In this document: one piece after another, positions 4,801 to 28,310 of the stretch
How positions within the stretch are numbered: position 1 is the first letter of the stretch
How the letters are laid out: every line of letters starts with the position of its first letter
Assembly (NCBI GenBank): GCA_030266105.1
Contig: JAJDHH010000005.1
Span: 961 to 64,960 of the forward strand
Direction of reading: 5' to 3'
Origin: Eubacteriales bacterium OttesenSCG-928-K08
GTDB lineage: Bacteria; Bacillota; Clostridia; Christensenellales; CAG-138
DNA length: 64,000 nt
Translations under genes and position numbers: made by a program
The notes under the pieces: generated by a model
The model's database searches: none
Seen by the model: the letters and a program-made list of their open reading frames with translations, nothing else
What the model was told of the DNA's origin: nothing

Positions 4801-4943
4801 GAGCCGACCTTCTGATTGCTACCATCGTAGACATCAAATACGGCGCCCGCCAGGGAATAGCAGGGGTTGTTGTTCGACATCGCCGGGTTGCTGGAAACCT
4901 TTTGAATCTCCAGATGCCCGGTGGGGTTGTAGTTCCATCCCAC
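1134..4943 (-). CDS. surface adhesin stalk (SpaA/Cna-B-type repeats plus two VaFE-type repeats plus sorting signal) reading through into the sortase fragment
   Basis: 1269-aa ORF with a GTG start. It has repeated modules ending TPPTGYLNTG..IKNN. Two repeats carry VVVFETLY / LVVFESLE. Then come a Pro-rich linker, VPQTSDD, and a hydrophobic stretch MVIVWIAMLGIALLGGTISFAVY. There is no signal peptide at the ORF start. Confidence 0.7.
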   Translation of the reverse strand: MGWNYNPTGHLEIQKVSSNPAMSNNNPCYSLAGAVFDVYDGSNQKVGSITTDANGWGRLEDLPAGSGYYLVEVTPPKGFALNTSRISFTIVSGQTVTVQVSDLPQNDPVGIILRKQDAETAAAVPQGGAMLAGAEFTVKYYKGLYSADQLSGRTPDRTWVLKTGANGTAYLHPDYLVSGDAFYYAGNGDPTLPLGTVTIQETKPPTGYLINNELFIRQITSQGTAESVRTYNQPIVPDKVIRGGVAIEKWDFDLNRRAAPQGDATLAGSEPEIYNRSANSVVVNGKTYAPGEVVHTMTTDEAGAAATANDLLPYGEYEIVEKTPPTGYLNTGVIRQSFAIRDQGIIVSLKTSATTIKNNVIRGGVEIEKWDIERDERVLKQGDATLEGAVLEIWNRSAHSVVVEGTEYAPGAVVYTMTTDADGWAGAESNLLPYGSYEIIEKTPPTGYLNTGIIRQSFQIREEGVIVDLKASETVIKNNIIRGGVRVEKWDNEIDAHRPQGGATLEGAIFEIVNRSADSVLVQDVLYEVGEVVYTFETDSTGTAQTPSELLPYGTYEVREVSPPRGYLATGVLNRTFEIREHGVTVVLNTSDKAIKNNPIRGDLKGVKISDGDAKRLANVPFAITSVTTGESHVIVTDINGEFSTASSWNPHSQNTNRGETDRDGIWFGQPETLNDELGALLYDTYLIEELPCEANKGYELLSFEVSVYRHNTVIDLGTLTNDHIVVPEIFTTARDQDTGDGNAYASEKTTIIDTVYYSGLKAGQEYTVRGILMDKETGEPLLVGGETVTAEVIFHAPADTGSIPMAFTFDSSALKGKAVVVFETLYLEEKEIATHVDIEDEGQTVTFIDPKIGTSAKTENGSKTIPIAESVTVVDAVSYEGLVPGQKYVLKGVLMDKQSGQPLTKDGKAVTAETTFTPTASSGTVEVRFTFDSRAIAGRTLVVFESLEIDGVEIAVHADINDAAQAVNVDKRVPDEPKTPQPTPPAPTQPTKPVPQTSDDNMVIVWIAMLGIALLGGTISFAVYMHLRKKKGKRRMVAAVSLALCVALIAASGYMLAQEARQYTEGANAYDKLAEFVGSPQPQDGADAQDGRDSDGQVNVSMQTDGAAPAAPSRLPVVDFDTLLETNPDIRAWLVCEDTGINYPVAQAEDNSYYLKRLYDGTRNKAGCLFIDYENDPFTDRNTIIYGHNLLDGSMFSELIGYQEQAYFDAHPDLLMATSDGGYIVEVFAAFVASPGEAGGSTSPWLISWEDDAAYSAWLESMQSRANG
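3100..4260 (-). repeat. tandem ~360-bp coding repeats (3 clear copies plus a degenerate one) encoding the SpaA-type stalk modules
   Basis: The motif (a/g)tcccatttt recurs at 3471, 3831 and 4191, an exact 360-nt period. The protein modules VIRGGV(A/E)IEKWD...TPPTGYLNTG...IKNN repeat accordingly. Confidence 0.75.
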
Positions 4944-4949
4944 GAAGCT

Positions 4950-6362
4950 CTACGTCGCGCCATCCGCCTCGTTGTAGACAAACGCCTCAAAACCATCGGG
5001 CGGCATGGGCTGTGCGCAGACCGACGCATACACCCCCATCAGGTGCTGCACAACAGAGGGACTGACTCTATAGAACGCCTCTGATGCGTTTCCACTGTAT
5101 GCATAGGCCGCGGCCAAATGGCTGTATGCGTAGGCCAGCAGCGAATCGGGGTCGTCGAACAAATTGTGCTTGACGGAATCGTAGCCGGGGCCGCCATAGA
5201 GGTAGTACGCACACTTAATCAGCGCATCGTCCACACCCGGCTGAAGATAGCGGCTGACAGGGTATGTGCCCGTTGGGGCGCTCGGCACGGACGGTTGCAG
5301 GCAGAACGCCGTGTTGCCGTTCGCGGTAAAATAGTGGGTGTAGTATCCGTAATATATCTGGTCGTCGCTGCGTGTGTGGGCCACCTGGCCGCCGGAATTG
5401 CGGGTGCGCAGCATCGCCTGGGTATAGGCCACGACCGTTAGGTCGCCACCCAGTGGTGAGGTGGATACATGCAGAGTCCCGTCCGAATAGCTGTAAGCGT
5501 CTGCGGGAAGCTCAATGCCGTTTTGTGACACGACCAGGGAGTCCGCAGAAGCAAGCGGTATGCTGATGCTGGCTACGTTTGACGGCAGGCGCAACTCGCT
5601 GGTGGATGTGGTAAACCGGCCGTTTTCAAAAGCGCAGACCGTTGCCTTTACAGGCAGTTCCACAGCCTCTGACGCAGGGCAATACCACTCGACCGTAACC
5701 GAATGCCCCATGTAGTCCTGCGGCAGTGAAACCATGCCGGTCGCTGCATCGTAAAATGCCAGCGCGGTGATGTCCTCACTGTCGTTCAGCAGCACACGAA
5801 AGCGCATGGCATCCGTACTGACCGGCACGATGCCGGGGAACTTGTTTGCCGAAATGGTGATGTTTTTGCCATCCGCCAGTGCCAGGGCGTAGAACGAATG
5901 GGTGGATGCCAGCGTATAGGCTGCATATTCCACAATCACCTGTTCAGGGCTGTCGGCGTAATAGTGGTAATCCACCCGCACCAAAGGCTTATCCACCACT
6001 TTCACCAGTTCCGGCTTCACCGAAGTAATGGGAGCGGGGTGCGTAGGTGTAGGCTCAAAGACGGGCGGCACGCTCTCCGCTGGTTCCTCCTCGGTAGGCG
6101 GTGTGCTTTCCACTGGCTCTTCCGATGCAGGCGGCGGTGTGTTTTCCGCAGGTTCGCCGAGATCAGGCTCAATCGGCCCGCTGTCGTCCGGCACGGAACT
6201 ACCGTCCGGTGGTACCGGAGATGTTTCATCGGGAAATGACTCAGTTTGATTGATGATGCCTGTATCCGTTGTGTCCTCTGCCAGCGCGGTCACAGGCAGA
6301 ATGGACAGGCACATCATCAAAACAAGCATGATCCCAAGAATACGCTTGAATCGCTTTCTCAT
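4950..6362 (-). CDS. adhesin head: signal peptide, Pro-rich linker, putative thioester-type adhesive domain
   Basis: ATG at 6362 follows AAGGAGG. Signal peptide is MRKRFKRILGIMLVLMMCLSILPVTALA. A PE-rich linker follows. The C-terminal domain has NGNTAFCLQPSVPSAPTG and YYLYGGPGYD. It ends at TAG 4950-4952, in the same frame as the stalk ORF. Confidence 0.65.
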   Translation of the reverse strand: MRKRFKRILGIMLVLMMCLSILPVTALAEDTTDTGIINQTESFPDETSPVPPDGSSVPDDSGPIEPDLGEPAENTPPPASEEPVESTPPTEEEPAESVPPVFEPTPTHPAPITSVKPELVKVVDKPLVRVDYHYYADSPEQVIVEYAAYTLASTHSFYALALADGKNITISANKFPGIVPVSTDAMRFRVLLNDSEDITALAFYDAATGMVSLPQDYMGHSVTVEWYCPASEAVELPVKATVCAFENGRFTTSTSELRLPSNVASISIPLASADSLVVSQNGIELPADAYSYSDGTLHVSTSPLGGDLTVVAYTQAMLRTRNSGGQVAHTRSDDQIYYGYYTHYFTANGNTAFCLQPSVPSAPTGTYPVSRYLQPGVDDALIKCAYYLYGGPGYDSVKHNLFDDPDSLLAYAYSHLAAAYAYSGNASEAFYRVSPSVVQHLMGVYASVCAQPMPPDGFEAFVYNEADGAT

Positions 6363-6384
6363 GTGGTCCTCCTTAAAAAATGGC

Positions 6385-6422
6385 AGTAAAAAGCCCCGCA
6401 TATCGCTTTGATATACGGGGCT
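6385..6422 (-). terminator. intrinsic terminator after the Pro-rich membrane protein gene
   Basis: Minus strand reads agccccgtatatc-aaag-gatatgcggggct followed by TTTTT. The two arms have one position that does not pair. Confidence 0.55.
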
Positions 6423-6460
6423 GTGGGTTATGATGCGCAAAGGCATATTTGAAAACAGGG

Positions 6461-7021
6461 TCACTCCACGCGGTAGCTGAAATCCTCTCCGTTCAGGAGA
6501 TGCCCATCGCCATGCGCTGGCACATTTCCTGTGATATCCGCACCGCAGGTGTTGCAGATCGTCCGGGTTTGCGGTGGTGGTGGATCGGGAAGCACCGACT
6601 CGGGTTCCGGTTCGGGTGCTGGCGGTTGTGCAGGCGGTGGCGTGGGTTCAGGTGCAGGTGTGGGTGGCGGCGCTTGCTCTGGCTGGGTTATGGGCGCGGG
6701 CGTTGATGGAGCCGCGGGTGGATTACCGCCGCCCGTGTTGCCTTGCGGCGTAGCGGTGGCCTGTGAACCGCCATCCTGTCCATCCTGCTTAGAACTGTCC
6801 GTCGAGTCCGGGTGTATCGTTGATGCGGGAGAAGGCGATATGATCGTCGGGGCCATGCTTTCAGATGGTGTTGAAGATATGGCTGCGCTCTGTTCGGGCA
6901 TGGGCTCCGATGGTGGGGCTTCCTCCTGCTTCTGTGCACCGCAGGACCTTGCCAGTAAAGCGATGACCAGGCCCAGGGTAATCAAAATCGCTACAGACGC
7001 CACCGTCTTCTTTTTTTGCAT
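6461..7021 (-). CDS. membrane-anchored proline-rich protein with small C-terminal CxxC..HxxxH module
   Basis: ATG at 7021 follows GGGAGGA. N-terminus is MQKKKTVASVAILITLGLVIALLA (signal anchor). A long P/T/S/A-rich region follows, then ICNTCGADITGNVPAHGDGH at the C-terminus. Confidence 0.5.
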   Translation of the reverse strand: MQKKKTVASVAILITLGLVIALLARSCGAQKQEEAPPSEPMPEQSAAISSTPSESMAPTIISPSPASTIHPDSTDSSKQDGQDGGSQATATPQGNTGGGNPPAAPSTPAPITQPEQAPPPTPAPEPTPPPAQPPAPEPEPESVLPDPPPPQTRTICNTCGADITGNVPAHGDGHLLNGEDFSYRVE

Positions 7022-7044
7022 GCCGCATCCTCCCATCAACCAGA

Positions 7045-7230
7045 CTATTGCATTGGTTGTGGCATTGTAGCTTGCGTTTTACTCGTTGTCAAATGGTTCT
7101 TCATCTGTCCCATCAACATCGCGTGAGTAATAGGTATAGTGATTTGCGCGGAGTCATAGTTGCGCTCATCCCCGGCACTTGTGCCGGTTGGTGCAATCGA
7201 GTCCCAAAATCCGCTGTATTCTTTGGCCAT
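7045..7230 (-). CDS. hypothetical small protein (61 aa) downstream of tail genes
   Basis: ORF with AGAGGTGAG 5 nt upstream of the ATG. No recognisable motif. Confidence 0.3.
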   Translation of the reverse strand: MAKEYSGFWDSIAPTGTSAGDERNYDSAQITIPITHAMLMGQMKNHLTTSKTQATMPQPMQ

Positions 7231-7234
7231 AAGC

Positions 7235-8413
7235 TCACCTCTTTTTATTTAGCTCTGTTATACGATCCGCTAACGTAAGACTGTTTGATCCAACAACCGC
7301 CTCCACATTGATGCGCCCGCGCTCATATATCTCGCGCACCAGAGTGATGCGTGTATCCAACAGCAGCCGCTTACCCAGCACATCCATGACCACAGTGACT
7401 ATATCCCCAAGATCCCAATCCACGCCGTAAACAAAAGAGCCGGTGGGAATTATCTCCCCCTCCAGCCCTTGGATCAACTTACGGGTATCTTTGTGTTTGT
7501 GCAATCCTTCAAAATATAATTTCTCCGGATCGTCTACATTCCCGGCTGATATCCACGCCTCACGGCGATCCCAGCCTGCTATTGGATCCTCCAGCTGATT
7601 GCCCTCATCATCCATGTAGGCGGTAAGCACCAGCTGATCCTCATCCTCACCAGCACCACCGATATACGGGGCATTGGTATACTCGCTTTTATCGTAGGTA
7701 TAGCGATTGCTGATAATATTGTCCATGGCGGGCGTAAAAATCACCGGACTGTTGCCATCGGTATTTGTGGTAGTTTTATCCCTGCCGGGCACCACCACAA
7801 ATACCATGCGTTTATTTTTCTCGTCCAGCCGGATATCCCAGCCCATGCCCGTCCATTCGCCGATCTCGGCAAATACCTCGTGCAGCTTTTCGTTATGCTG
7901 GCACTGCCATGGTGTAATAATTCCACGCGGGGGATCCGCAATATCATCCAACACAATCCCCGGAAGCCTGCGGTTATCGTCCACCGGTGCTATCATGTGC
8001 CGTGCGGCATAGTGCCTATATACATCTTCGGCGGTGCCCTGCACGCGATCCCACCCCAGTGCATTCGGATCCTCCGTTTGCGTGGGCGGCACGATGATCC
8101 TAAGCCGCGCTGCGCCTTTTAGCATGAACCCTGATACTGTGATATTATCTGTGTTACGATCATCATCCGCTTGTATTTTGCGTATGATACCCGCCCGAGC
8201 ATCGCTCATGCCCATGCAAATAATACGTCCCTCGGCCAGCTTATCCGCATCCATTGCCTGTTCAGGGAGTACAAGAGTAAACTTTCCAACGCCCCAGTGG
8301 CTGCGTTCAAATGTAAACGATGTGTATTTTGGTATCAAGCCGACTTGCGTCAGGTTCGTGTCCAACACAAATAAATCCCTGTTTTTAGGGACGCGCCCAT
8401 ATACATCGTACAT
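7235..8413 (-). CDS. tail protein (Gp37-like / Tal N-terminal-type baseplate hub)
   Basis: Sits immediately after Dit. N-terminus MYDVYGRVPKNRDLFVLDTNLTQVGLIPKYTSFTFERSHWGVGKFTLVLP resembles siphovirus Gp37-like proteins, judged from memory of the family. Confidence 0.6.
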   Translation of the reverse strand: MYDVYGRVPKNRDLFVLDTNLTQVGLIPKYTSFTFERSHWGVGKFTLVLPEQAMDADKLAEGRIICMGMSDARAGIIRKIQADDDRNTDNITVSGFMLKGAARLRIIVPPTQTEDPNALGWDRVQGTAEDVYRHYAARHMIAPVDDNRRLPGIVLDDIADPPRGIITPWQCQHNEKLHEVFAEIGEWTGMGWDIRLDEKNKRMVFVVVPGRDKTTTNTDGNSPVIFTPAMDNIISNRYTYDKSEYTNAPYIGGAGEDEDQLVLTAYMDDEGNQLEDPIAGWDRREAWISAGNVDDPEKLYFEGLHKHKDTRKLIQGLEGEIIPTGSFVYGVDWDLGDIVTVVMDVLGKRLLLDTRITLVREIYERGRINVEAVVGSNSLTLADRITELNKKR

Positions 8414-19101: not shown

Positions 19102-20538
19102 TTAACTGCCGCCTTTCTTCGGAAATGTCGCCGTTATAAAACGGGGAACACCACTTCCCTCATCAATCTGCCACACAGTTAACATTTCGAGCATCCTTCC
19201 CTTTTCGCCCGACATGATTATTGGGACAGTGAATTTAGTTGCACTAATTGTAACATTATCCTTGTTGTATGTAAACGATTTAGCCTCATTCACAGGGCTT
19301 TTTTGCACTTCCCAATACAACTTATCAGAAAATACATTCCAACTGACTTCAGCATAGCCCAATACCGAACGAATAACATGCGCCTTGTGTTTTCCTGCGG
19401 GATGCTCAGAGCTAAGCAAGTAACCACGCAACTTTTCTTCTGTCGTCACCGCAAGCAATGCATTTGGCAAAACGCCATCTTTCATGCCCCGCACATATAG
19501 ATTATATTTTTTGTTCATCAGAGCCCAGGTATCGCTCCCTGATGCCTTCATACGTCTAAATGCCGCAAATGACCTAGGCGCGCTACCCCCAAGCACCTGT
19601 CTCCATCGCACATACTGCTTACGATCTGAGTTCATCTGCGCTTTTTTCTGCTGATCCGCTCTATAAGCCTTAATCTCATCAACACTTCGCGTATCAGTGC
19701 CTGTTGGCTTGTCGGCGTCCGCCAAAGCCCTTGCCCGTTCTTCCTTGGGTAACATTGACCAATTTATTGACACGCTAATGTGCCTACAATTCGGATGAAC
19801 ATTATCGAACTCCGGCCAAAGTCGATATGCCGCACTGATATGAGGCAGCCGGCTTCGCTCATCCTCTCGCGTAAAATCCATCGTACGGTAGTAGCGATCT
19901 TGAAGTGGAGCGCACACGGCGCATGTGGGGTAATGTTTAGACATACGTACAACGCCCTCGCCCCACTCGCTGAGGGACACGCCTATCGCGGCCATATTGG
20001 CCGCCTGGTTAACCGCCGTGCGCACTGCCATCGCCGCATATGTGTCATAGGGCACAACGCGACCGTCGCGATACGTAATGCCGCCCAGCGCGTTTCCCTC
20101 TCCGCGAAGCGATTCGGTAAGCCGTTCTACCGCCTGCTGTGGAGATAATCCATCATGCAGCCATCCCCGTATCACACCTTCGTACCGTACCTCACGAGTA
20201 GCCTCACGAACACGCACCATCGCATCACGCACATACTCTTCGCTTGCGTTTGCCGCATTGAATGCTAAATACTCGAGCTGGTCATCTAACTGTAACATAC
20301 CAATAAGCTCATCTACATTATCGCTTTGATCTTTCAGAGCATCAATGTATCCTTCTTGCACAGCCAATGGCATAAAACTCCGGATTGCTTTAGCAAACCT
20401 AGCAAGCAACATCTCAATTTCTTTGGCCGCTGCATGAAGACGTTGCAGCGCGGACCCAGTACGCTTTTTAACAAGGGCGTCCTGTATAGTTTCACGCGCC
20501 TCTTTAGCGGCCTTCTCTAATTCTTTACGGTAGTTCAC
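19102..20538 (-). CDS. MuF / SPP1 gp7-type head morphogenesis protein with C-terminal DUF6883-like extension
   Basis: The MuF core has ..YPTCAVCAPLQDRYY..HPNCRH... The C-terminal ~110 aa read EEKLRGYLLSSEHPAGKHKAHVIRSVLGY...MLTVWQIDEGSGVPRFITATFP. GTG start overlaps the portal stop (GTGA). Confidence 0.75.
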   Translation of the reverse strand: MNYRKELEKAAKEARETIQDALVKKRTGSALQRLHAAAKEIEMLLARFAKAIRSFMPLAVQEGYIDALKDQSDNVDELIGMLQLDDQLEYLAFNAANASEEYVRDAMVRVREATREVRYEGVIRGWLHDGLSPQQAVERLTESLRGEGNALGGITYRDGRVVPYDTYAAMAVRTAVNQAANMAAIGVSLSEWGEGVVRMSKHYPTCAVCAPLQDRYYRTMDFTREDERSRLPHISAAYRLWPEFDNVHPNCRHISVSINWSMLPKEERARALADADKPTGTDTRSVDEIKAYRADQQKKAQMNSDRKQYVRWRQVLGGSAPRSFAAFRRMKASGSDTWALMNKKYNLYVRGMKDGVLPNALLAVTTEEKLRGYLLSSEHPAGKHKAHVIRSVLGYAEVSWNVFSDKLYWEVQKSPVNEAKSFTYNKDNVTISATKFTVPIIMSGEKGRMLEMLTVWQIDEGSGVPRFITATFPKKGGS

Positions 20539-21974
20539 TCATCATCACCGCTCCCACCGAACGAGGTATTCATTTCATCAAGCGCAGTAACCTCAAAAGC
20601 TTCAGCATTTTCATCCCCGATGCGGTTAATTTCCTTCTGTGCCTCGCTTTCTGTTTTGCCGTCAACCTCCATGATAGCTGTCTGAATACTCATAGTTTGT
20701 TTGGCACCCGTACGCAGGCTTACGATCTGCGCCGTCTCCATTGGATCATCAGGCAGGCCATCAAACCACTTGATTGATATATCTGCGGAATGAATTCCAT
20801 CTAGCCGCGCGGCCGTTTGGATTACCTGCTTTAGTACAGGGTCGAACGTCATACGAACGCGAGCAATTTTTGCAAGAGCGGTAGATAACAGCGTACGCAA
20901 AGCTGTGCCTGTTGGCATCTGACCCATTTTTTCAGCAACATCGGAAATTAGCGCGCCCATCTCTGAAATTGTGCGTAGTTGTCCCAAAAGCTTCTCGATT
21001 TGCTCAAATGCCGCCGACATTTGAGCATCCCAAACAATATATCCAACATTGCCGCTTTCGTCCTCTCCTAGTCCGCGATTGATAAAGAAATTACCGGTGC
21101 GAATTTCAAATTCGCCCGTACCCATACCATTCTCCCCGCGCCTCTCCTCGAGCGCACTAGCGGGGCCTTGCATACTGGGCTGCGCATGTTTATCTAAAAC
21201 TTTTGATATCTGGGCAAAGCGCACCTCGATCTCTTGTATTAGGCTGTTGATATTGTGATAGTCATCAATGCCATGCACGCGGTCAGAGGTAACAATGTTT
21301 GATACTTGCCAAAAGTCAATTCCATCGACTCCTGTACTAACCACCTCGGGTGTAGCTAGCCGATCACCAATCACCCCGGACACTTTTCCCTCTAGTCGAT
21401 GGCGACGTCGCTCATTTTGCCCGGGAGAATGTATTTCAATGAGCAGCTCGCGCTCTGTGGGTTTCTCTGAATTCGGCGCAACAACTGCAGCGATCACCTC
21501 ATGTAACCTGTGCTTGATATTTAGCGGATCCACTACAGGATACCAACAATCTGTGCGCCCAACATAAGCTACCGCTCCTCCTTGAGGACGTGACACGCCA
21601 AGCGTGCCATCCCCATATCTGGATACGTCCAATGCCGCTTGATAGCACTGTGAAAGCAGTTGTGATCTCTGAGTAAAACCGTCAATAAAGACTTGCATTT
21701 TCTTATCTTTGCTGGTGATTGTAGGCCATTCAGAAAAAAGCAGATCGGCAGTTTTCTTGCTAACTAGCTGTTGATAGTTGAGTAAAATTTCATAACTTAC
21801 AACATCATCAAACGCGCCAACTACCTGTTGTACGCGCCGAAAAGCATCACTCTGCCCGCCATAGTGCTCGCCTTCAAAAAGTTTCCGGTTGATGTCATAA
21901 AGCTGAATGCGCTCAACCTCCGACTTAGGGGGCCAAGGCTGACCAGGCTCAAGAAATATTAAGTCATACAACAT
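20535..21974 (-). CDS. phage portal protein
   Basis: 479 aa, directly upstream of MuF. N-terminus MLYDLIFLEPGQPWPPKSEVERIQLYDINRKLFEGEH is portal-like. Confidence 0.8.
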   Translation of the reverse strand: MLYDLIFLEPGQPWPPKSEVERIQLYDINRKLFEGEHYGGQSDAFRRVQQVVGAFDDVVSYEILLNYQQLVSKKTADLLFSEWPTITSKDKKMQVFIDGFTQRSQLLSQCYQAALDVSRYGDGTLGVSRPQGGAVAYVGRTDCWYPVVDPLNIKHRLHEVIAAVVAPNSEKPTERELLIEIHSPGQNERRRHRLEGKVSGVIGDRLATPEVVSTGVDGIDFWQVSNIVTSDRVHGIDDYHNINSLIQEIEVRFAQISKVLDKHAQPSMQGPASALEERRGENGMGTGEFEIRTGNFFINRGLGEDESGNVGYIVWDAQMSAAFEQIEKLLGQLRTISEMGALISDVAEKMGQMPTGTALRTLLSTALAKIARVRMTFDPVLKQVIQTAARLDGIHSADISIKWFDGLPDDPMETAQIVSLRTGAKQTMSIQTAIMEVDGKTESEAQKEINRIGDENAEAFEVTALDEMNTSFGGSGDDE

Positions 21975-22930
21975 TTGTTAGCCGTGTCGGTATCTGCGTC
22001 CAGTTTCGCAACAGCCTCGCTATGCCGCGCCTTGATTACGGCAAGCTTGTCATTTAGCCGATCATCCAGGCCGGCAAGCTTATCCTCCGCCGCAACGATC
22101 TCCGCCTTGAGTCGTTCAATCGTTCGGCTCAAACCATCCCGCTCATTTGCGATGGCCTTTTCTTCTGCTGCAATCGCCATATCCCGATCGGCATCCAGCC
22201 CGCGCATTTTGTTATCGTATGATGCGCGAAACGCCTTAGCGCGCTCGATCCGGTTATTAGTCTCTCTCGCCTGTTCGAGCCGCCTTATTGCCTCGGACAG
22301 ATCAAAATTCTCCCACTTTTCCGCTTGGTATCCTTGCGGTATATCCCGTGCGATCTCGGCCACAAGCGATTGATTGTTTTTGATATCGCGGTTAATATTC
22401 TGGCGGCTCTGGTAATACACGCCTTTTTCGGATTGGATATCTGCCAGAACCTCAAGGATGTGCTTCGAGTAGTCTACTCCCTGCGGAATTTCCCCAAATT
22501 GAGCGCGTATCCAGTTCGTATCCCAATCAAATTCGATCAGGTTCAGGATGACGCGATTTTTCTCCTGCCGCGACATCTGCGTAAATTCCACCGGATTCAG
22601 TTGTAACGGAGTAAATATCTGGTTCAAAAACTCGGCCGGGCGCGTTTGCGTTAGCGAGCCGTCGCGCACCTTAACCGCATCCGCTTTGTTCAAGCGTGTT
22701 TTGCGATTGATATGCAGGCCCGTATCGGTTTCAATTAGGATTTCCCCCTCTTCCGCGCCCTGCCGGATGATAAAATCCCGGTCGCTCCGATTGGTAAGGG
22801 CATACCGTATCGCATCCAGCACTGATGTTTTACCGGCCCCCTTAGGCCCAGTAAGCTCAACCGATCTCCCGGTGAGATCACATTCTGATATGCCAAACAA
22901 GTTGCGTATTTTTATTTGAGTTGTACGCAT
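21959..22930 (-). CDS. SMC/SbcC/RecF-type ATPase, N-terminal half only (Walker A plus coiled coil)
   Basis: ATG at 22930 follows GAAAGGAAAAG. Reads IRNLFGISECDLTGRSVELTGPKGAGKTSVLDAIRYAL and then a long coiled coil. There is no signature or Walker B half. The 3' end overlaps the portal start by 16 nt. Confidence 0.65.
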   Translation of the reverse strand: MRTTQIKIRNLFGISECDLTGRSVELTGPKGAGKTSVLDAIRYALTNRSDRDFIIRQGAEEGEILIETDTGLHINRKTRLNKADAVKVRDGSLTQTRPAEFLNQIFTPLQLNPVEFTQMSRQEKNRVILNLIEFDWDTNWIRAQFGEIPQGVDYSKHILEVLADIQSEKGVYYQSRQNINRDIKNNQSLVAEIARDIPQGYQAEKWENFDLSEAIRRLEQARETNNRIERAKAFRASYDNKMRGLDADRDMAIAAEEKAIANERDGLSRTIERLKAEIVAAEDKLAGLDDRLNDKLAVIKARHSEAVAKLDADTDTANKCCMT

Positions 22931-23031
22931 ATGCTTTTCCTTTCTGATCACTTGCGCTTTTTCAAGCAATGTGATATACTATTTGTGTATTTTTATGACG
23001 AACGCCTTACTGGTTGCTTCCGGTGGGCGTT

Positions 23032-23154
23032 CTATTTTTTAACCCACCTCAACCAACGCGCCACCAACTGTGATAGCGCCGGGATGCGTGTGCAAGCCAG
23101 ATCGATTGCCAGCAGCACGGAGATGATGCACAGCGCGTAGAATAGGGCGATCAT
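23032..23154 (-). CDS. possible 40-aa hydrophobic peptide
   Basis: MIALFYALCIISVLLAIDLACTRIPALSQLVARWLRWVKK. The ATG abuts the stop of the upstream HTH gene. Below the ORF-track length cut-off. Confidence 0.25.
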   Translation of the reverse strand: MIALFYALCIISVLLAIDLACTRIPALSQLVARWLRWVKK

Positions 23155-23394
23155 TTACTCCACCTCCCAGCAGGTCGACCGCGTGTGTCCATATTTCATA
23201 AACGACACAAAACCTGCCCGGGGTATGATCACCCTGGATAAAAGCACAATGACCGGAAAGCCAAGCTTAAGAGGCTCACGTTGCGCTTGCTGACGAATAT
23301 TTTGGGCGTTAACGCCAATAACTTCGGCTACTTCCTCAACCGATAACGTTGCGGCTGTCATATCCTCAATATCTGCTAATGTGAGCTTTGGCAT
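23155..23394 (-). CDS. small HTH DNA-binding protein (excisionase/HTH_17-like)
   Basis: Reads ..LSVEEVAEVIGVNAQNIRQQAQREPLKLGFPVIVLLSRVIIPRAGFVSFM. Confidence 0.6.
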   Translation of the reverse strand: MPKLTLADIEDMTAATLSVEEVAEVIGVNAQNIRQQAQREPLKLGFPVIVLLSRVIIPRAGFVSFMKYGHTRSTCWEVE

Positions 23395-23486
23395 AGTTTG
23401 GTCTCCTTTCTGCCCAACATGACGGGCTAATATTTGCTTCCATATATTCTTACGTGATACAATTTCCCTAGAAGGGAGGTGTAGTT

Positions 23487-23651
23487 ATGCAACACAAATT
23501 TGACCCTGAATTTGCCATCGAAACTGCTGTGAGGCTTGCGGAGAAAAACATTAAATCTACCGATAGTTGGGTTTCCGCCGAAGATGTAACAGAGTTTATA
23601 GATGGCGTCTATTCGTTTCTTGTTAACGGTGGCGATTCGTCCGATGAGTAA
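23487..23651 (+). CDS. 54-aa acidic hypothetical protein, counter-oriented to the phage genes
   Basis: ATG follows GGGAGGTG. Upstream is TTGCTT-N18-TACAAT with TG. Peptide is MQHKFDPEFAIETAVRLAEKNIKSTDSWVSAEDVTEFIDGVYSFLVNGGDSSDE. Confidence 0.4.
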   Translation: MQHKFDPEFAIETAVRLAEKNIKSTDSWVSAEDVTEFIDGVYSFLVNGGDSSDE

Positions 23652-23845
23652 ACCATGAGAATAGTTGCAGCTGCCGGCAGAACTGCAATTTCTGCCGGGG
23701 TTGCCCCTTCCATTTTTCCCTTGGCTGCGCGCAATACAAAATCCTGTGGCGCTTTTTTGATTTCGTCCATGTGCCAATTTTCTACTTTCTTGAGAGGGAT
23801 ATATTGGTGTGGTATAATTTCCCCATAAAGGGGAGGGGTAGTTTG

Positions 23846-24241
23846 ATGGATAGTAATGGCATGATCTCGGTAAATGCATTTCGCATATTGGGCGAATTTG
23901 GGAAAGTTAAAAAATTTACCACCGATGAACGCAACTCCTTATTTGCATCGGACGAGGACAAGGAGGCAATAACATATTTGGAGAACGCAAAGCTTATTGA
24001 GGGAACAGATTTCGCGTCTTATTCCGGCGTGGGTGTTGTAGGAAGATATGCAACAGCCTACAAGATAACCGAAAAGGGAAGGGCGGTTTTAGACGATCAC
24101 ATAGATCAAAAACACGCATCCCGAAAGGCAGACAAGCGCTGGCGCATAACTACGACAATTGCCGTTGTAGCCCTTATCGTTGCGATCTTAGCGCTCATTC
24201 CGCAGATACTTCCTTTGCTTAATAGCGCATGGATAGAATGA
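23846..24241 (+). CDS. membrane-tethered winged-helix-like protein (131 aa)
   Basis: ATG follows GGGGAGGGG. Upstream is TTGAGA-N17-TATAAT with TG. The motif ..YLENAKLIEG...YKITEKGRAVL.. looks winged-helix-like. C-terminal TM is ITTTIAVVALIVAILALIPQILPLL. Confidence 0.55.
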   Translation: MDSNGMISVNAFRILGEFGKVKKFTTDERNSLFASDEDKEAITYLENAKLIEGTDFASYSGVGVVGRYATAYKITEKGRAVLDDHIDQKHASRKADKRWRITTTIAVVALIVAILALIPQILPLLNSAWIE

Positions 24242-24341
24242 GTGCGAGAATCTGAAGAGCAAGGGCAACGACTAGAATGTATAGTGGTGCATTTGGCCAC
24301 CTTCTCGGGGCCTCTTCCCATAGTTTTTTGATCTTCCCCAT
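24219..24341 (-). CDS. possible 40-aa membrane peptide convergent with 23846-24241
   Basis: MGKIKKLWEEAPRRWPNAPLYILVVALALQILALILSMRY after GAAGGGAG. Overlaps the 3' end of the plus-strand gene by 23 nt. Confidence 0.2.
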   Translation of the reverse strand: MGKIKKLWEEAPRRWPNAPLYILVVALALQILALILSMRY

Positions 24342-24450
24342 CTACCAATCTACTCCCTTCTAGCTGACTTTGTTGTCTAGCTCAAAAAGATGCATAATAT
24401 CGACCCCAAGCAGTTCGGCTGTTTTGCGCATTTCACACTTATCTTTCACA

Positions 24451-24478
24451 TTGCTTTACCCACATGTACTTGTTACAA
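24451..24478 (+). promoter_or_regulatory. sigma-70-type promoter TTGCTT-N17-TACAAT
   Basis: Reads cacaTTGCTTtacccacatgtacttgtTACAATattt. It has the same hexamers as the promoter upstream of 23487. Confidence 0.5.
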
Positions 24479-24588
24479 TATTTGTACGCCTGATTAAGGG
24501 CAGGAACAGGAGGTGGTCTTATTGACCAAACTTTTGTTGATGCCCAGTCCTGATGAATGCTGATGCGTGTTGGGCATCAAGCGGAACC

Positions 24589-24610
24589 TGAACCGCTAAA
24601 GTGAAGCGCC
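24589..24610. repeat. left arm of perfect 22-bp inverted repeat
   Basis: tgaaccgctaaagtgaagcgcc is the exact reverse complement of 24843-24864. Confidence 0.95.
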
Positions 24611-24799
24611 TTGCCATAGAAGCAACCTGTGGTTGGGGAAGCGTTTGTACGCAAAAGGCAGCATCCGCGAGTATAGCCTGACCTCACTAAAAAGGTAAGA
24701 TGCTGATTGTCGACGTCTTACTGGTTGAAAATCCAGACCAAAATATTTGGACGAGACGACAACTGCAAACTGCAACAAGGTTCAGGAAAACAAATAGGG

Positions 24800-24842
24800 C
24801 ATGAGAGCTTCGGCGCAACCACCGCCGGGCTTTCATGTTTTT
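24800..24842 (+). terminator. plus-strand intrinsic terminator
   Basis: The outer stem catgagagc/gctttcatg has 9 bp including one G-U. The inner stem is cggcg/cgccg. Five T follow at 24838-24842. Confidence 0.65.
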
Positions 24843-24864
24843 GGCGCTTCACTTTAGCGGTTCA
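24843..24864. repeat. right arm of perfect 22-bp inverted repeat
   Basis: ggcgcttcactttagcggttca starts immediately after the terminator T-run. Confidence 0.95.
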
Positions 24865-24876
24865 CGACACCGCCTC

Positions 24877-25086
24877 TTAACTTGCTTTGGGGAAACGTTT
24901 AAAAAGCCAAGCCATTTCATAGTGCGGAAAATGTATGCTATGAATTAATCGAACCTCATAGTATGTCCAAGCATAGGTGCCATTCAGTTTGTTTTGAATA
25001 GTGTTTCTGTGTGCAGTGAGCGTGACCGCTAGGTCATTGATTGTAACTGCTTCCCGTTCCATGGCGGTTTTAAGGTTGTGAAACAA
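24877..25086 (-). CDS. Cro-like small HTH regulator
   Basis: TTG start 7 nt after GGAGGG. Reads ..MEREAVTINDLAVTLTAHRNTIQNKLNG... Divergent from the cI-like gene. Confidence 0.6.
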   Translation of the reverse strand: MFHNLKTAMEREAVTINDLAVTLTAHRNTIQNKLNGTYAWTYYEVRLIHSIHFPHYEMAWLFKRFPKAS

Positions 25087-25110
25087 TACGGCTCCCTCCT
25101 TTAATCTTTT

Positions 25111-25188
25111 CTTTTGTCAAGATGATGATAGTCTAAATCCGTACTTTTGTCAATATTTATTTTTCATTTGTACAGATTTTTATTGACC
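25111..25188. promoter_or_regulatory. divergent switch region: repeated TTGACAAAAG boxes and facing promoters
   Basis: cttttgtcaa occurs at 25111-25120 and 25144-25153. Minus strand has TTGACA-N17-TATCAT. Plus strand has TTGACC-N17-TAACAT at 25183 onward. Confidence 0.45.
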
Positions 25189-25230: not shown

Positions 25231-25665
25231 ATGGCAATAGGAGATAAGCTCCAAAGACTTTTGCAAATAAGAAAAACCAACGTCAATCAATTGTCGTTGG
25301 CTACAGGCGTAAATGTAAATACGATTTACGGAATTATTAGACGCAATAATACAAAGGTTAAACTTGAGGACTTACAAGCCATCTGTGACGCACTTGGCGT
25401 AACCCTTGACTATTTTGCAGATGTTGGGCATACCTCAATTGATATTTCTCTTACGAAGCAAGAGCATATGCTTTTGTCTAGCTTTAACCTCGCATCTCCC
25501 GACGATCAAAAGATACTTTTGCGCATTGCTGAGCTTGCCGCTCAAGTAACCCCACAAGAGCAGCCGGAGACAGATGATCAAGCGACCGCAACTGCACGGC
25601 AGGTTGTTGAAGAGCTTGGGCAAGCTCGTTTACAAGAAGATAGCCCGGCAACTGAGGAAGCTTAA
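25231..25665 (+). CDS. XRE-family CI-like repressor
   Basis: HTH_3 motif LQIRKTNVNQLSLATGVNVNTIYGIIRRNNTKVKLEDLQAICDALGVTLDYF. Confidence 0.8.
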   Translation: MAIGDKLQRLLQIRKTNVNQLSLATGVNVNTIYGIIRRNNTKVKLEDLQAICDALGVTLDYFADVGHTSIDISLTKQEHMLLSSFNLASPDDQKILLRIAELAAQVTPQEQPETDDQATATARQVVEELGQARLQEDSPATEEA

Positions 25666-26928: not shown

Positions 26929-28023
26929 ATGCTATGTAAAAAATGCAAAAAAGAGATCCCGCCAGATAGCGCGTTTTGTAACTGGTGCGGAGCGGCTCAA
27001 GCCCCGCGCGAAAAATCCGTCAAAAAGCGCGGAAATGGCCAGGGCTCTGTTTACAAGCTTGCTAACGGGCGCTGGATGGCCGAATGCCGCATAATGCACG
27101 GCGGGCAGGATAAACGCTCAAGGCGCACGTTTACGACCCGCACGGCAGCGCTGGAGTGGCTAAAAACCGCAGACCCAACCGTTAAAAAGGAAGTTACGCT
27201 AAAGTCACTATATGAGGCATGGAGCACAAGCGCCATGCTTAAATTATCAGACTCAAAACAAACCGCGCACAAGATCGCCTATAACCGATTTTCTGATCTG
27301 CAATACGCGCCAATCAAAGATATAAAGATCGAAGACCTGCAAAGCATGGTAGATGATAACGGGACCTCGTATTACACTAAACGCGACATGAAGAGCCTGC
27401 TCTCACACCTTTACAAACGGGCAGTTGCACAGCAGGATGTGACAACAAATTTAGCCCTATATATCGAATTGCCGAAATTGGAAGAATCTGTTCCGGAGCC
27501 CTTTACCGAAGATGAGTTGAAGCTGCTATGGACTGATTATGGAAATGAAAATAAGTTCACCGGCTACATACTGCTTATGATCTATTCGGGCATGATGCCG
27601 GGCGAGCTCTTACAAGCTACAAAAGATATGATTGACTGGGAGACCCAAACCATCACCGGCTGCGGGCTTAAGACTAAAAAGCGCAAGTCTACGCCGATCG
27701 TAATTGCTGATTTTATGGTCCCTGTGCTCGCTGACCTCTTGAGCCTTGGATCAGGCGGGAAGCTCGTAGGCATGAGCAAGAATCAATTCTATGATGAGTA
27801 CCACTCCACAATGCAGCGCATAGGGTGTCGCGACCTACCTCCCTACTCATGCAGGCACACAACGGCTACCGCTATGGCGCTGGGAAACATCGCCCCTTCA
27901 GTTATACAAGAGGTTATGCGCCACTCAAAAATTACCACAACACAACGTTACATCCACATCGATCAGCGCCCAATGTTGGATGCTGTAAATACGCTTAAAA
28001 CTCAAATTAACAGTGGGCAATAG
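26929..28023 (+). CDS. int: tyrosine site-specific integrase with N-terminal zinc ribbon
   Basis: N-terminus is CKKCKKEIPPDSAFCNWCG. The C-terminal catalytic box is SCRHTTATAMALGNIAPSVIQEVMRHSKITTTQRYIH. Confidence 0.9.
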   Translation: MLCKKCKKEIPPDSAFCNWCGAAQAPREKSVKKRGNGQGSVYKLANGRWMAECRIMHGGQDKRSRRTFTTRTAALEWLKTADPTVKKEVTLKSLYEAWSTSAMLKLSDSKQTAHKIAYNRFSDLQYAPIKDIKIEDLQSMVDDNGTSYYTKRDMKSLLSHLYKRAVAQQDVTTNLALYIELPKLEESVPEPFTEDELKLLWTDYGNENKFTGYILLMIYSGMMPGELLQATKDMIDWETQTITGCGLKTKKRKSTPIVIADFMVPVLADLLSLGSGGKLVGMSKNQFYDEYHSTMQRIGCRDLPPYSCRHTTATAMALGNIAPSVIQEVMRHSKITTTQRYIHIDQRPMLDAVNTLKTQINSGQ

Positions 28024-28120: not shown

Positions 28121-28213
28121 TGGCGGAGACGGAGAGATTCGAACTCTCGCACCAGTTATCCCAGCCTACTCCCTTAGCAGGGGAGCCCCTTATAGCCACT
28201 TGGGTACGTCTCC
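28121..28213 (-). tRNA. tRNA-Ser (anticodon GCU)
   Basis: Reverse complement is GGAGACG..CTCCC-CTGCTAA-GGGAG..long variable arm..GAGAGTTCGAATCTCTC-CGTCTCC-GCCA. Folded by hand. Confidence 0.9.
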
Positions 28214-28222
28214 ATTATAATT

Positions 28223-28310
<88 letters not shown>

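What the first reader, a model, noticed from the sequence alone, without database searches (positions are those of the whole stretch)
24589..24864. Perfect 22-bp inverted repeat bracketing 232 bp that contains an orientation-specific terminator: candidate invertible switch (or closing stem of a structured RNA / MITE)
tgaaccgctaaagtgaagcgcc (24589-24610) is the exact reverse complement of 24843-24864, verified base by base. Such a match is very unlikely by chance in a region with no convincing ORF. The enclosed segment ends with a strong plus-strand intrinsic terminator (14 paired positions plus T5, 24800-24842) butted directly against the right arm. It also holds a possible minus-strand promoter, TTACCT-N17-TATACT. 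In the present orientation, the terminator stops plus-strand transcripts from the promoter at 24451 before they run antisense into the cro-like gene at 24877-25086. If the segment flipped, the same hairpin would instead terminate leftward (cro-direction) early transcription, and plus-strand transcripts could read into cro. This is the geometry of an inverton. Alternative readings are a roughly 275-nt RNA closed by a 22-bp helix, or a miniature IR element. A tyrosine recombinase is encoded 2 kb away, but nothing links it to this site.
Basis: partly seen in the sequence, partly recalled or inferred. Interest (0 to 1): 0.7.

Follow-up and report, generated by a model that had tools for sequence, protein, structure and literature searches.

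The report
FuFi-1 phage RNA with post-terminator complement
The repeat is real, but it brackets most of a known, highly expressed prophage RNA gene of unknown function (FuFi-1) rather than a flippable DNA switch; its second arm is a co-evolving complement of the RNA's 5' domain placed just after the RNA's own terminator, seen in only a few related phages.

Summary
The 22-bp perfect inverted repeat (24589-24610 / 24843-24864) is confirmed and is far beyond chance. The DNA between the arms is not an anonymous invertible segment. Rfam places a full-length FuFi-1 RNA (RF02986, 87 bits against a cut-off of 59.6) at 24558-24836 on the + strand. The left arm lies inside its conserved 5' domain, and the "orientation-specific terminator" is FuFi-1's own terminator. 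The terminator loop forms the family's covarying pseudoknot with the P3 loop.

Three gut metatranscriptomes each hold one discrete contig (about 24508-24799). None reaches the right arm or shows a joint.

The right arm is absent from about 90 other unique FuFi-1 loci. It recurs, imperfect and with compensatory changes, in the closest relatives (L221, L223), and more weakly in L003/L020. It always lies just 3' of the terminator. These loci also lack a good canonical P1 helix.

Prophages with a homologous cro-like gene carry no FuFi-1, so FuFi-1 behaves as a cassette. No invertase, target duplication or extra copy was found.

My best reading is a selected RNA-level pairing that forms only on terminator read-through transcripts, which run antisense through cro towards cI. 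That mechanism is inferred. The inverton reading is unlikely and the MITE reading is rejected.

The parts
24451..24479 (+). Candidate promoter of the FuFi-1 transcript (TTGCTT, 17 nt, extended -10 TGtTACAAT); predicted start about 24486
   Evidence: Read from the sequence. Below the scan threshold. RNA contigs begin at 24508-24527.
24509..24563 (+). Leader element: SD-like GGAGGTGGT, a hairpin (UGGUC/GACCA plus AGGAG/CUUUU), and a 13-codon micro-ORF from TTG 24522 to TGA 24563
   Evidence: The same element precedes FuFi-1 in at least 107 viral-contig loci. The base before TG is A, T or G and never C. The hairpin appears in the MFE fold. Coding versus structural role is unresolved.
24558..24836 (+). 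FuFi-1 RNA (Rfam RF02986), full model 1-175, with an insertion of about 100 nt in the P4 hairpin
   Evidence: 87.1 bits against a gathering score of 59.6, E 3.5e-17. Transcribed: contigs at 24508-24799, 24512-24786 and 24527-24798 in three metatranscriptomes.
24580..24597 (+). P1a hairpin (AGCGG-AACCUGAA-CCGCU), which carries the family's most conserved loop bases
   Evidence: Rfam alignment.
24589..24610 (+). Left arm of the repeat = FuFi-1 model positions 34-55: the end of the P1a loop, the P1a 3' strand, AAAG, the P1 3' strand UGAAGCG, and the first 2 nt of P2
24629..24635 (+). P3 loop GUGGUUG, pseudoknot partner of the terminator loop
   Evidence: a perfect complement of 7 nt or more between the P3 loop and the terminator loop in 48 of 67 unique loci, with more than 30 different sequences.
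24800..24842 (+). FuFi-1 intrinsic terminator (stem 24800-24815 / 24823-24837, loop CAACCAC 24816-24822, U5 24838-24842). Its reverse strand is followed by a U-rich stretch (CCCUAUUUGUUUUCC), so it may also terminate the convergent cro-like transcript
   Evidence: The bidirectional role is inferred from the sequence only.
24843..24864 (+). Right arm: exact complement of the FuFi-1 5' domain, directly after the U-tract, in the 34-nt spacer before the stop codon of the cro-like gene
   Evidence: Analogous covarying arms occur in L221 and L223 and a weaker one in L003/L020.
24877..25086 (-). Convergent cro-like gene (69 aa, HTH-like). Homologues (52-54% identity) sit at the same position in prophages that lack FuFi-1
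25231..25665 (+). cI-like repressor gene (HTH_26/HTH_3), on the same strand as FuFi-1 and reached by any FuFi-1 read-through
26929..28023 (+). Prophage tyrosine integrase next to two tRNA-Ser genes (28121-28310). It is context only and is not linked to the repeat
   Evidence: L220 has the same integrase and tRNA layout without FuFi-1.

Best explanation
The locus is a FuFi-1 ncRNA gene cassette in the lysogeny module of a prophage of a gut Clostridia-type host.

The cassette has its own promoter (about 24451-24479) and a leader with an SD-like hairpin and micro-ORF. The FuFi-1 body follows. An intrinsic terminator (24800-24842) ends it, and the terminator loop is part of the RNA fold through a pseudoknot with P3. 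The terminated RNA of about 350 nt is the abundant species.

The 22-bp repeat is not a recombination site. Its left arm is the conserved 5' domain of FuFi-1: the P1a 3' half, AAAG and the P1 3' strand. Its right arm is a lineage-specific complement placed immediately 3' of the terminator.

Inferred mechanism. The right arm is transcribed on the + strand only when RNA polymerase reads through the FuFi-1 terminator. Such a transcript would continue antisense through the cro-like gene and into the cI-like gene, a geometry like that of lambda P_RE. On that transcript the right arm pairs with a FuFi-1 5' domain. The partner is either the same molecule (in cis) or an abundant terminated FuFi-1 (in trans), whose 5' domain is left free in this clade by the lack of a canonical P1.

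The resulting perfect duplex of 22 bp or more (about -42 to -50 kcal/mol) excludes the P1a/P1 fold. It is of the length and type that RNase III cleaves. It would therefore mark, process or silence read-through transcripts. In L223 it would also occlude the SD of the next gene.

Shown: the identity of the RNA, its expression, the family-wide pseudoknot, the rarity of the arm and its covariation. Inferred: that pairing happens at the RNA level on the + strand, and what its consequence is.
For: Identity. Rfam FuFi-1 at 87.1 bits against 59.6, covering the full model. The P3-terminator pseudoknot is present (GUGGUUG/CAACCAC) and covaries across the family.

Expression. Three metatranscriptomes each hold one 100%-identical contig at about 24508-24799, at depth up to 28. 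This is the only feature assembled in all three runs across 20 kb.

Rarity. Among 93 unique FuFi-1 loci, the window's post-terminator complementarity is the extreme (z -7.6). The median z is -0.5.

Conservation with covariation.
- L221 has 27 Watson-Crick pairs and 1 GU over 29 positions (z -10.8).
- L223 has 24 Watson-Crick pairs and 2 GU over 28 positions (z -5.2).
- Both are Rfam-confirmed FuFi-1.
- Each arm tracks its own lineage. One position reads G-C, A-U and U-A in the three lineages, and another reads C-G or U-A. L221's UCUAGU/ACUAGA stands where L223 has CCUUG/CAAGG.
- 89.7% of cells are paired, against 25-49% when the partners are slid. Three pairs changed on both sides.

Position. 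The arm is always just 3' of the terminator, whatever follows. A convergent cro-like gene follows in the window, L221 and L003. A co-directional ORF follows in L223, and the arm overlaps its SD.

Strand. In L003/L020 the pairing is better as + strand RNA (-28) than as - strand RNA (-19 kcal/mol).

Folding. The RNA extended to 24880 gains about 29 kcal/mol by forming the 22-bp stem.

P1. Canonical P1 pairing in the window, L221 and L223 ranks 3rd, 2nd and 8th weakest of 63 loci.

Cassette. Prophages with a homologous cro-like gene have no FuFi-1.

Precedent. The Gifsy-1 IsrK short RNA acts on its own terminator read-through isoform, and P4 CI RNA pairs with seqA/seqC on the same transcript (both as described in PMC4825925).
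Against: - No read-through transcript has been observed. The RNA data are assembled contigs from one study. They carry no strand information and end about 45 nt before the predicted 3' end.
- In the window, L221 and L223 the arms pair equally well on either strand. A - strand RNA or a DNA-level role is therefore not excluded.
- Only three or four lineages carry the arm, so the covariation statistics are thin (87 of 500 shuffles reach 3 double-change pairs).
- L222 and L224 share the arm core but have no clear right arm.
- Most FuFi-1 genes work without the arm, so any role is accessory.
- Concerted evolution of a short inverted duplication without function is not excluded.
- The right arm in the window is not confirmed by independent reads.
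Confidence: 0.5

Rival explanations
1. Neutral relic. The right arm is a short inverted partial duplication of the FuFi-1 5' domain. It could have arisen by template switching or recombination near the terminator hairpin. It is kept similar to the left arm by recency or gene conversion and has no function.
For: The arm is missing from about 90 other unique FuFi-1 loci and from L222 and L224. The arms in L223 and L003 are decaying, with 4 mismatches and with bulges respectively. Similarity extends imperfectly beyond the 22-mer, as expected of a copied segment (GCGG/CCGC). Pairing is strand-neutral in three lineages.
Against: Arms in three divergent lineages differ from each other yet match their own partner, including changes on both sides. 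Repeats of 22-30 bp that lie 230-250 bp apart are poor substrates for gene conversion or quasi-palindrome correction (general knowledge). The arm keeps the same position relative to the terminator in four different genomic contexts. It coincides with loss of canonical P1.
Confidence: 0.25
2. P1 replacement. In this clade the functional RNA extends past the 'terminator'. The post-terminator strand replaces the lost upstream P1 strand, so the 22-bp helix (or a 14-bp version that spares P1a) is part of the mature fold.
For: The window, L221 and L223 have almost no canonical P1 partner even though the P1 3' strand is GC-rich. The only strong partner is the right arm.
Against: RNA contigs stop at 24786-24799 in all three samples and never include 24843-24864. 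The full 22-bp helix would unfold P1a, which carries the family's most conserved bases. The terminator has a strong stem and a U5 tract, and no terminator follows the right arm.
Confidence: 0.08
3. Minus-strand role. The arm acts in the cro-like mRNA, either as a sense copy (decoy) of the FuFi-1 5' domain in the cro 3' UTR, or as a processing stem formed when early leftward transcription reads through and runs antisense across FuFi-1.
For: In the window, L221 and L003 the arm lies between the cro-like stop codon and a terminator that looks bidirectional. Minus-strand pairing is as stable as plus-strand pairing in the window, L221 and L223. The minus-strand copy re-creates a P1a-like hairpin (GCGGU...ACCGC; sequence).
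Against: In L223 a co-directional gene separates the arm from cro. In L003/L020 minus-strand pairing is about 9 kcal/mol weaker than plus-strand pairing. No minus-strand FuFi-1-like match exists.
Confidence: 0.1
4. Inverton. A site-specific recombinase flips 24611-24842 between the two arms, switching FuFi-1 on and off or re-orienting the terminator.
For: There is a perfect 22-bp inverted repeat flanking 232 bp. A tyrosine recombinase lies 2 kb away. No DNA reads were available to exclude a minority orientation.
Against: - The left arm and both of its flanks are collinear with the FuFi-1 consensus, so the present orientation is the intact gene.
- All six independent assemblies of arm-bearing loci and all three RNA samples show the same orientation. 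No contig has a strand-switch joint or a partial fit.
- The recombinase is the prophage integrase at the tRNA-Ser site. L220 has the same integrase and tRNA layout without the repeat.
- No serine invertase or other recombinase was found in the ORFs scanned by Pfam: 10 of the 13 ORFs of 140 aa or more at 12.9-20.5 and 28.5-32.4 kb, plus 9 ORFs at 20.5-28 kb.
- The arms covary between lineages rather than being conserved as a recombinase site.
- The internal 'promoter' is weak, at 8 of 12 positions.
Confidence: 0.04
5. MITE or other small mobile element with 22-bp terminal inverted repeats; or a retron-like msr/msd with a1/a2 repeats.
For: Size (276 bp) and perfect terminal repeats.
Against: - There is a single copy in 64 kb.
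- There is no target-site duplication: the flanks are ..GGAACC and CGACAC...
- The 'left terminus' lies in the middle of a conserved RNA whose homologues lack the right terminus.
- No match was found in GenBank phages.
- The flanking ORFs scanned by Pfam show no reverse transcriptase.
Confidence: 0.01

Closest known systems
FuFi-1 RNA motif (Rfam RF02986; Weinberg et al. 2017, PMC5737381)
   Same: The full-length match is above the gathering score. The locus has the conserved P1a loop, AAG, AUAGAAG, P2, P3, the GG.AAA.AAAU linker and a 3' intrinsic terminator. The P3-terminator loop pairing is present. The context is a phage and Firmicutes-type host, and the function is unknown.
   Different: Canonical P1 is reduced to about 4 bp. 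There is an insertion of about 100 nt in P4. A 22-nt exact complement of the 5' domain sits just after the terminator, which about 90 other unique loci lack. A conserved SD-like hairpin and micro-ORF leader lies upstream and is shared with a large high-GC subfamily.
Gifsy-1 prophage IsrK: short terminated sRNA acting on its own read-through isoform (PMC4825925)
   Same: It is a prophage ncRNA with an intrinsic terminator. A subset of transcripts reads through to make a long isoform. The short form base-pairs with the long form and changes its fate.
   Different: For IsrK the interaction activates translation of a downstream ORF and was shown experimentally. Here read-through and pairing are only inferred. 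The complementary site abuts the terminator, and in the window, L221 and L003 the downstream RNA is antisense to cro rather than an ORF.
P4 CI RNA with seqA/seqC and P1 c4 RNA with the icd-ant leader (immunity RNAs; P4 as summarised in PMC4825925; P1 from my own knowledge)
   Same: A stable RNA from the immunity region is complementary to a site, or sites, on the same transcription unit. Pairing blocks expression of what lies downstream. In L223 the complementary site overlaps an SD, as c4 does.
   Different: Those RNAs are small processed antisense RNAs in Proteobacteria phages and have no sequence or structural relation to FuFi-1. FuFi-1 is a large pseudoknotted RNA, and most of its members have no such target site nearby.
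Lambda sib retroregulation and lambda P_RE / OOP antisense transcription (my own knowledge of lambda biology)
   Same: As with sib, a long duplex that RNase III could cleave forms only on transcripts that pass a terminator. As with P_RE, a promoter beyond the 3' end of cro points back through cro towards cI.
   Different: No homology. At sib the duplex is local to the terminator, not a 250-nt long-range pairing. No antitermination factor or RNase III dependence is known here.
Invertons / phase-variable DNA switches (fimS, hin, gut-bacterial invertons)
   Same: Inverted repeats of 10-30 bp flank a few hundred bp of regulatory DNA.
   Different: There is no dedicated invertase. Both orientations have not been seen. 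The repeat arm is part of an RNA gene. The arms covary between lineages.

Membership tests
FuFi-1 RNA (RF02986) | Covariance-model score at or above Rfam's gathering score over the full model | tested here: met
   87.1 bits against 59.6, model positions 1-175, 24558-24836 on the + strand. Relatives L221, L223, L003 and L020 score 90.8-100.1 bits.
FuFi-1 RNA (RF02986) | Conserved P1a hairpin loop (GAAC..AAC), AAG, and (A)UAGAAG junction | tested here: met
   GCGGAACCUGAACCGCUAAAG...CAUAGAAGC at 24581-24623. The pattern built from these bases retrieved 68 viral and 44 genome loci, most of them FuFi-1.
FuFi-1 RNA (RF02986) | 3' Rho-independent terminator as part of the motif, with its loop complementary to the P3 loop (pseudoknot) | tested here: met
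   Terminator at 24800-24842. GUGGUUG 24629-24635 pairs with CAACCAC 24816-24822. A perfect complement of 7 nt or more occurs in 48 of 67 unique loci against 4-5 nt in shuffles. I could not check whether the published consensus drawing includes this pseudoknot, because the figure and supplement are not held.
FuFi-1 RNA (RF02986) | P1 helix closing the 5' domain (7 bp in the consensus) | tested here: inconclusive
   Only 4 standard pairs in the Rfam register (UGCU/AGCG). The best upstream partner gives -4.2 kcal/mol against a family median of -8.0.
FuFi-1 RNA (RF02986) | Expressed as a discrete RNA | tested here: met
   One contig per run at about 24508-24799 in three metatranscriptomes, at depth up to 28.
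Inverton (site-specific invertible DNA switch) | Inverted repeats flanking the segment | tested here: met
   22 of 22 bp.
Inverton (site-specific invertible DNA switch) | Dedicated invertase (serine or Fim-type tyrosine recombinase) encoded nearby | tested here: not met
   The only recombinase among the ORFs scanned within about 12 kb is the prophage integrase beside the tRNA-Ser genes. L220 has the same integrase and tRNA layout without a repeat or FuFi-1. Activity on this site cannot be excluded from sequence alone.
Inverton (site-specific invertible DNA switch) | Both orientations present in sequencing data | tested here: inconclusive
   There is one orientation only in three RNA contig sets, with no joints, and in all arm-bearing assemblies. 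No DNA run could be found. Contigs drop rare variants.
Inverton (site-specific invertible DNA switch) | A promoter or other orientation-dependent element wholly inside the segment | tested here: not met
   The interior is the body of an RNA gene whose promoter and 5' domain lie outside it. The internal minus-strand promoter candidate scores 8 of 12 and was not listed.
MITE | Multiple dispersed copies and a target-site duplication | tested here: not met
   No other copy of the arm exists in the window. The flanks are not duplicated. The viral-contig matches to the arm core include FuFi-1 5' domains (L221, L223) and show no dispersed mobile-element copies.
Retron msr/msd | Adjacent reverse transcriptase gene | tested here: not met
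   The neighbours carry no RT domain.
RNase III retroregulation site (lambda sib type): 'works like', not membership | Duplex of about 20 bp or more that exists only in read-through transcripts and is cleaved by RNase III | not testable with these tools
   The duplex is predicted (22 bp). Read-through and cleavage have not been observed.

The most novel reading that the evidence does not exclude
In this FuFi-1 sub-clade the abundant terminated RNA is an immunity-type riboregulator. Its 5' domain has been freed by loss of P1. It captures the complementary site on transcripts that escape its own terminator, and so controls a P_RE-like transcript that is antisense to cro and sense for cI (or, in L223, the SD of a lysogeny-expressed gene). 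The post-terminator arm would then be the first identified target of a FuFi-1 RNA and would link this orphan RNA class to the lysis-lysogeny decision. The conserved SD/micro-ORF that overlaps the P1 5' strand could add a layer of control that senses translation.
Probability: 0.2. Interest if true: 0.7.

Novelty: new variant of a known kind. Interest (0 to 1): 0.4.

Why it matters
FuFi-1 is one of the large, highly conserved orphan RNAs for which no function, ligand, partner or target is known. Weinberg et al. 2017 tested it for self-cleavage and found none.

This locus adds four things.
- Expression data show that FuFi-1 is the dominant transcript of a prophage lysogeny region in gut samples.
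- The gene sits on the cI strand, pointing through cro.
- A sub-clade has lost the canonical P1 helix and carries a co-evolving complement of the 5' domain just past the terminator.
- A widespread SD-like/micro-ORF leader precedes the RNA.

Together these turn 'function unknown' into concrete experiments: terminator read-through, arm mutations with compensatory changes, and RNase III dependence. If the arm proves to be neutral, the finding is simply one more FuFi-1 gene.

Tried and rejected
- **Family-wide target site.** I tested whether a post-terminator complement is a general FuFi-1 feature. Early by-eye hints (UCACUU after terminators) did not hold up. RNAduplex z-scores across 53 and then 93 unique loci centre near -0.5 to -0.75. 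In the short forms the TCAC comes from the stop codon of a convergent gene.
- **Second FuFi-1 on the minus strand.** No match on the minus strand appeared even at E up to 10. The resemblance between the reverse terminator and P3 is marginal (12 of 500 shuffles).
- **Close relatives by exact protein look-up.** The cro-like and cI-like proteins are not on record. A word-based homologue search for the cro-like protein found nothing. cI-like homologues led to related prophages without FuFi-1.
- **GenBank phages.** blastn gave no match.
- **Metagenome scan.** A sub-family pattern returned only one copy of the L003 type plus one mini-variant and chance hits.
- **DNA reads for an inversion test.** No run was served. 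No runs exist for L223 either.
- **My own covariance model R1.** It was built from short forms and missed the window at E of 0.01 or below, so Rfam's model was used for the window.
- **att-site duplicate of the tRNA-Ser region.** No repeat of 13 nt or more was found in the window.
- **First attempts.** An ad hoc terminator finder and an nhmmer 3'-domain profile were too insensitive and were replaced by the covariance model.
- **MITE, retron and DNA operator readings.** All were rejected, as set out under rival explanations.
Full report
**Observation.** The two arms, 24589-24610 and 24843-24864, are exact reverse complements separated by 232 nt. Even with 3 mismatches allowed they are the only copies in the window. 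Chance expectation is 0.01. The hairpin plus T5 at 24800-24842 is real and abuts the right arm. The region folds far better than shuffles on either strand (z -7.4 and -6.8), as any perfect repeat would.

**What lies between the arms.** An Rfam scan of the whole window gives a full-length FuFi-1 RNA (RF02986) at 24558-24836 on the + strand. It scores 87.1 bits against a gathering score of 59.6 (E 3.5e-17) and has an insertion of about 100 nt in one hairpin.
- The left arm corresponds to model positions 34-55: the end of the P1a loop, the P1a 3' strand, the conserved AAAG, the P1 3' strand and the first two bases of P2.
- FuFi-1 was described by Weinberg et al. 2017 as a highly conserved motif with a 3' terminator and unknown function. 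They judged it an improbable riboswitch and found no self-cleavage (PMC5737381). I found no later paper on it.

**The terminator is part of the RNA fold.** In the window the P3 loop GUGGUUG (24629-24635) is complementary to the terminator loop CAACCAC (24816-24822). Across 67 unique (P3, terminator) pairs from the collected loci, 48 have a perfect complement of 7 nt or more at this place, with more than 30 different sequences. Shuffled terminators mostly give 4-5 nt. The hairpin is therefore a covarying structural element of the RNA, not a free-standing terminator module.

**Expression.** Three gut metatranscriptome runs from one study each contain one 100%-identical contig, covering 24508-24799, 24512-24786 and 24527-24798, at depth up to 28.
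- Over 20 kb around it, only two other short low-depth contigs appear, both in one run.
- Nothing covers the right arm, the cro-like gene or the cI-like gene.
- No contig fits only partly, and none shows a joint.
- This fits an abundant discrete RNA that runs from a promoter at about 24451-24479 to the terminator, allowing for the usual loss of coverage at both ends.
- Contigs carry no strand and drop rare variants.
- No DNA run could be found.

**Genomic context.** The locus is the lysogeny module of a prophage.
- The cro-like gene is at 24877-25086 (-), and a strong leftward promoter is at 25153-25125.
- The cI-like HTH gene is at 25231-25665 (+).
- The tyrosine integrase is at 26929-28023 (+), next to two tRNA-Ser genes.
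- Host genes lie beyond the tRNAs. Phage portal and minor-capsid genes lie to the left. No other recombinase turned up among the ORFs scanned by Pfam within about 12 kb on either side.
- FuFi-1 lies on the cI strand, beyond the 3' end of cro and pointing towards it. Terminator read-through would therefore run antisense through cro and on into cI.
- Prophages with a homologous cro-like gene (52-54% identity, same position next to a cI-like gene) have no FuFi-1 at all. One of them (L220) also has an integrase next to a tRNA. FuFi-1 is thus a cassette in this phage, and the integrase has an ordinary role.

**Is the right arm a family feature?** I collected FuFi-1 loci with conserved-base patterns and located the RNAs with a covariance model.
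- In 93 unique loci, pairing between the first 95 nt of the RNA and the 45 nt after the terminator has a median z of -0.5. The window is the extreme at -7.6.
- Most FuFi-1 genes therefore have no such arm.
- A search with the arm core itself found relatives that the first pattern had missed because they carry AAGAAG instead of AUAGAAG.
- Two of these, L221 and L223, are Rfam-confirmed FuFi-1. They have a right arm just 3' of the terminator: directly after the U-tract in L221 and 17 nt after it in L223.
- L221 has 27 Watson-Crick pairs and 1 GU over 29 positions. L223 has 24 Watson-Crick pairs and 2 GU over 28 positions.
- Each arm follows its own lineage's 5' domain. One position reads G-C, A-U and U-A in the three lineages, and another reads C-G or U-A. 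The 3' extension is UCUAGU/ACUAGA in L221 but CCUUG/CAAGG in L223.
- On the three-sequence alignment 89.7% of cells pair, against 25-49% when the partners are slid. Three pairs changed on both sides. With n = 3 the statistics are thin.
- A weaker interrupted version sits in the same place in L003, L020 and L117 (z -3 to -4.6). It is clearly better as + strand RNA (-28) than as - strand RNA (-19 kcal/mol).
- L222 and L224 share the core but show no clear arm.

**What follows the arm.** A convergent cro-like gene follows in the window, L221 and L003. In L223 a co-directional 84-codon ORF follows, and the arm overlaps its candidate SD. The constant feature is the position just after the FuFi-1 terminator on the FuFi-1 strand. 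This argues that the arm belongs to the FuFi-1 cassette and acts with respect to the + strand transcript.

**A correlate.** The three loci with a strong arm are among the weakest of 63 for the canonical P1 helix (ranks 3, 2 and 8; -3.2 to -4.5 kcal/mol against a median of -8.0), although their P1 3' strand is GC-rich. In other high-GC members the P1 5' strand (CCGUUCCA type) is present and covaries (read).

**Folding.** The terminated RNA (24486-24842) has an MFE of -129.4 kcal/mol. Extending it to 24880 gives -158.7 kcal/mol, with the 22-bp helix closing the molecule and P1a unfolded.

**Interpretation.**
- Shown: the locus is a FuFi-1 gene. The left arm is its 5' domain. The abundant RNA ends before the right arm. 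The right arm is lineage-specific yet maintained with compensatory change.
- Inferred: the pairing is at RNA level and forms only on terminator read-through transcripts. The partner would be the same molecule or an abundant terminated FuFi-1 acting in trans.
- Inferred consequence: the duplex would be long and perfect enough for RNase III. It would process, silence or otherwise mark the RNA that would go on antisense through cro towards cI. In L223 it would also mask an SD.
- Precedents for a phage RNA acting on its own read-through or same-operon transcript: Gifsy-1 IsrK and P4 CI with seqA/seqC (PMC4825925); lambda sib and P1 c4 (my own knowledge).
- Confidence: about 0.95 that this is a FuFi-1 gene, about 0.65 that the complementarity is under selection, and about 0.45 that it acts on + strand read-through RNA.

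**Rivals.**
- A neutral inverted partial duplication (0.25) fits the rarity and the decay, but fits the covariation and the constant position less well.
- The helix as part of the mature RNA, replacing P1 (0.08), conflicts with the contig ends and with conservation of P1a.
- A minus-strand role in the cro mRNA (0.1) fits three contexts but not L223 or the strand asymmetry in L003.
- The inverton (0.04) has only the repeat in its favour.
- MITE and retron readings (0.01 or less) fail on copy number, target duplication, continuity of the RNA across the 'terminus' and absence of a reverse transcriptase.

**Limits.**
- The window's right arm has no independent read support.
- The RNA evidence comes from assembled contigs of one study.
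- The arm-bearing clade has only a handful of members.
- The supplement and figure of the FuFi-1 paper were not available, so I could not check whether its authors noted the pseudoknot, the leader or any downstream complement.

Noticed in passing
window 24509-24563; L119-L215 and others: An SD-like GGAGGTGGT is followed 4-5 nt later by NTG ACC AA. CTT TTG, which opens a micro-ORF of 13-22 codons (MT(K/N)LLxLPVP...; window MTKLLLMPSPDEC). It precedes FuFi-1 in at least 107 viral-contig loci. The base before TG is A 67 times, T 20, G 20 and C 0. The same bases can form an SD-sequestering hairpin, and the 3' part of the ORF overlaps the P1 5' strand of the high-GC FuFi-1s. It could be a translated leader or pure RNA structure.
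   Followed up: partly
window 24558-24564 / 24602-24608; L221, L223: FuFi-1 loci that carry the post-terminator arm have almost no canonical P1 helix (ranks 2, 3 and 8 weakest of 63).
   Followed up: partly
window 24629-24635 / 24816-24822 and 67 unique loci: The P3 loop and the terminator loop of FuFi-1 are complementary over 7-9 nt in most loci, with more than 30 different sequences, which indicates a strongly covarying pseudoknot. I could not verify whether the published consensus already shows it.
   Followed up: yes
window 25103-25123 and 25136-25156: Direct repeats AATC..CTTTTGTCAA.AT lie in the intergenic region between the cro-like and cI-like genes and overlap the strong leftward promoter (25153-25125). 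They are probably operator sites.
   Followed up: no
L113 1778-1906: A 129-nt 'mini' FuFi-1-like element: the 5' domain joins almost directly to the GGGUAAACAAAAU linker and terminator, with no P2-P4 body (R1 27.5 bits).
   Followed up: no
L016 8338-8477, L024 476-615, L025 1261-1400, L040 7629-7768: A second, weak covariance-model match (25 bits) lies about 7 kb from the main FuFi-1 in the same phage contigs. It may be a second, divergent copy.
   Followed up: no
window 20535-25086: The lysogeny switch is separated from the portal and minor-capsid genes only by an AAA_23 ATPase ORF and small ORFs. No replication module or terminase lies between them, so this may be a compact or rearranged prophage.
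   Followed up: no
window 1-8000: GC content is 0.56 in the first 8 kb against 0.43-0.49 in the rest of the window, which suggests a compositional boundary near 8 kb.
   Followed up: no
window 24586-24593 / 24779-24786: CCUGAACC in the 5' domain also complements GGUUCAGG in the 3' linker of the same RNA. The MFE fold of the terminated RNA uses this pairing instead of P1a, so it is a possible alternative conformation.
   Followed up: no
window 23771-24241: A 156-codon + strand ORF with a C-terminal hydrophobic segment lies upstream of FuFi-1. It has no Pfam match, and one metatranscriptome contig (23932-24117, depth 3) covers it. A 164-aa + strand ORF occupies the same position in L220 (not compared).
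   Followed up: no
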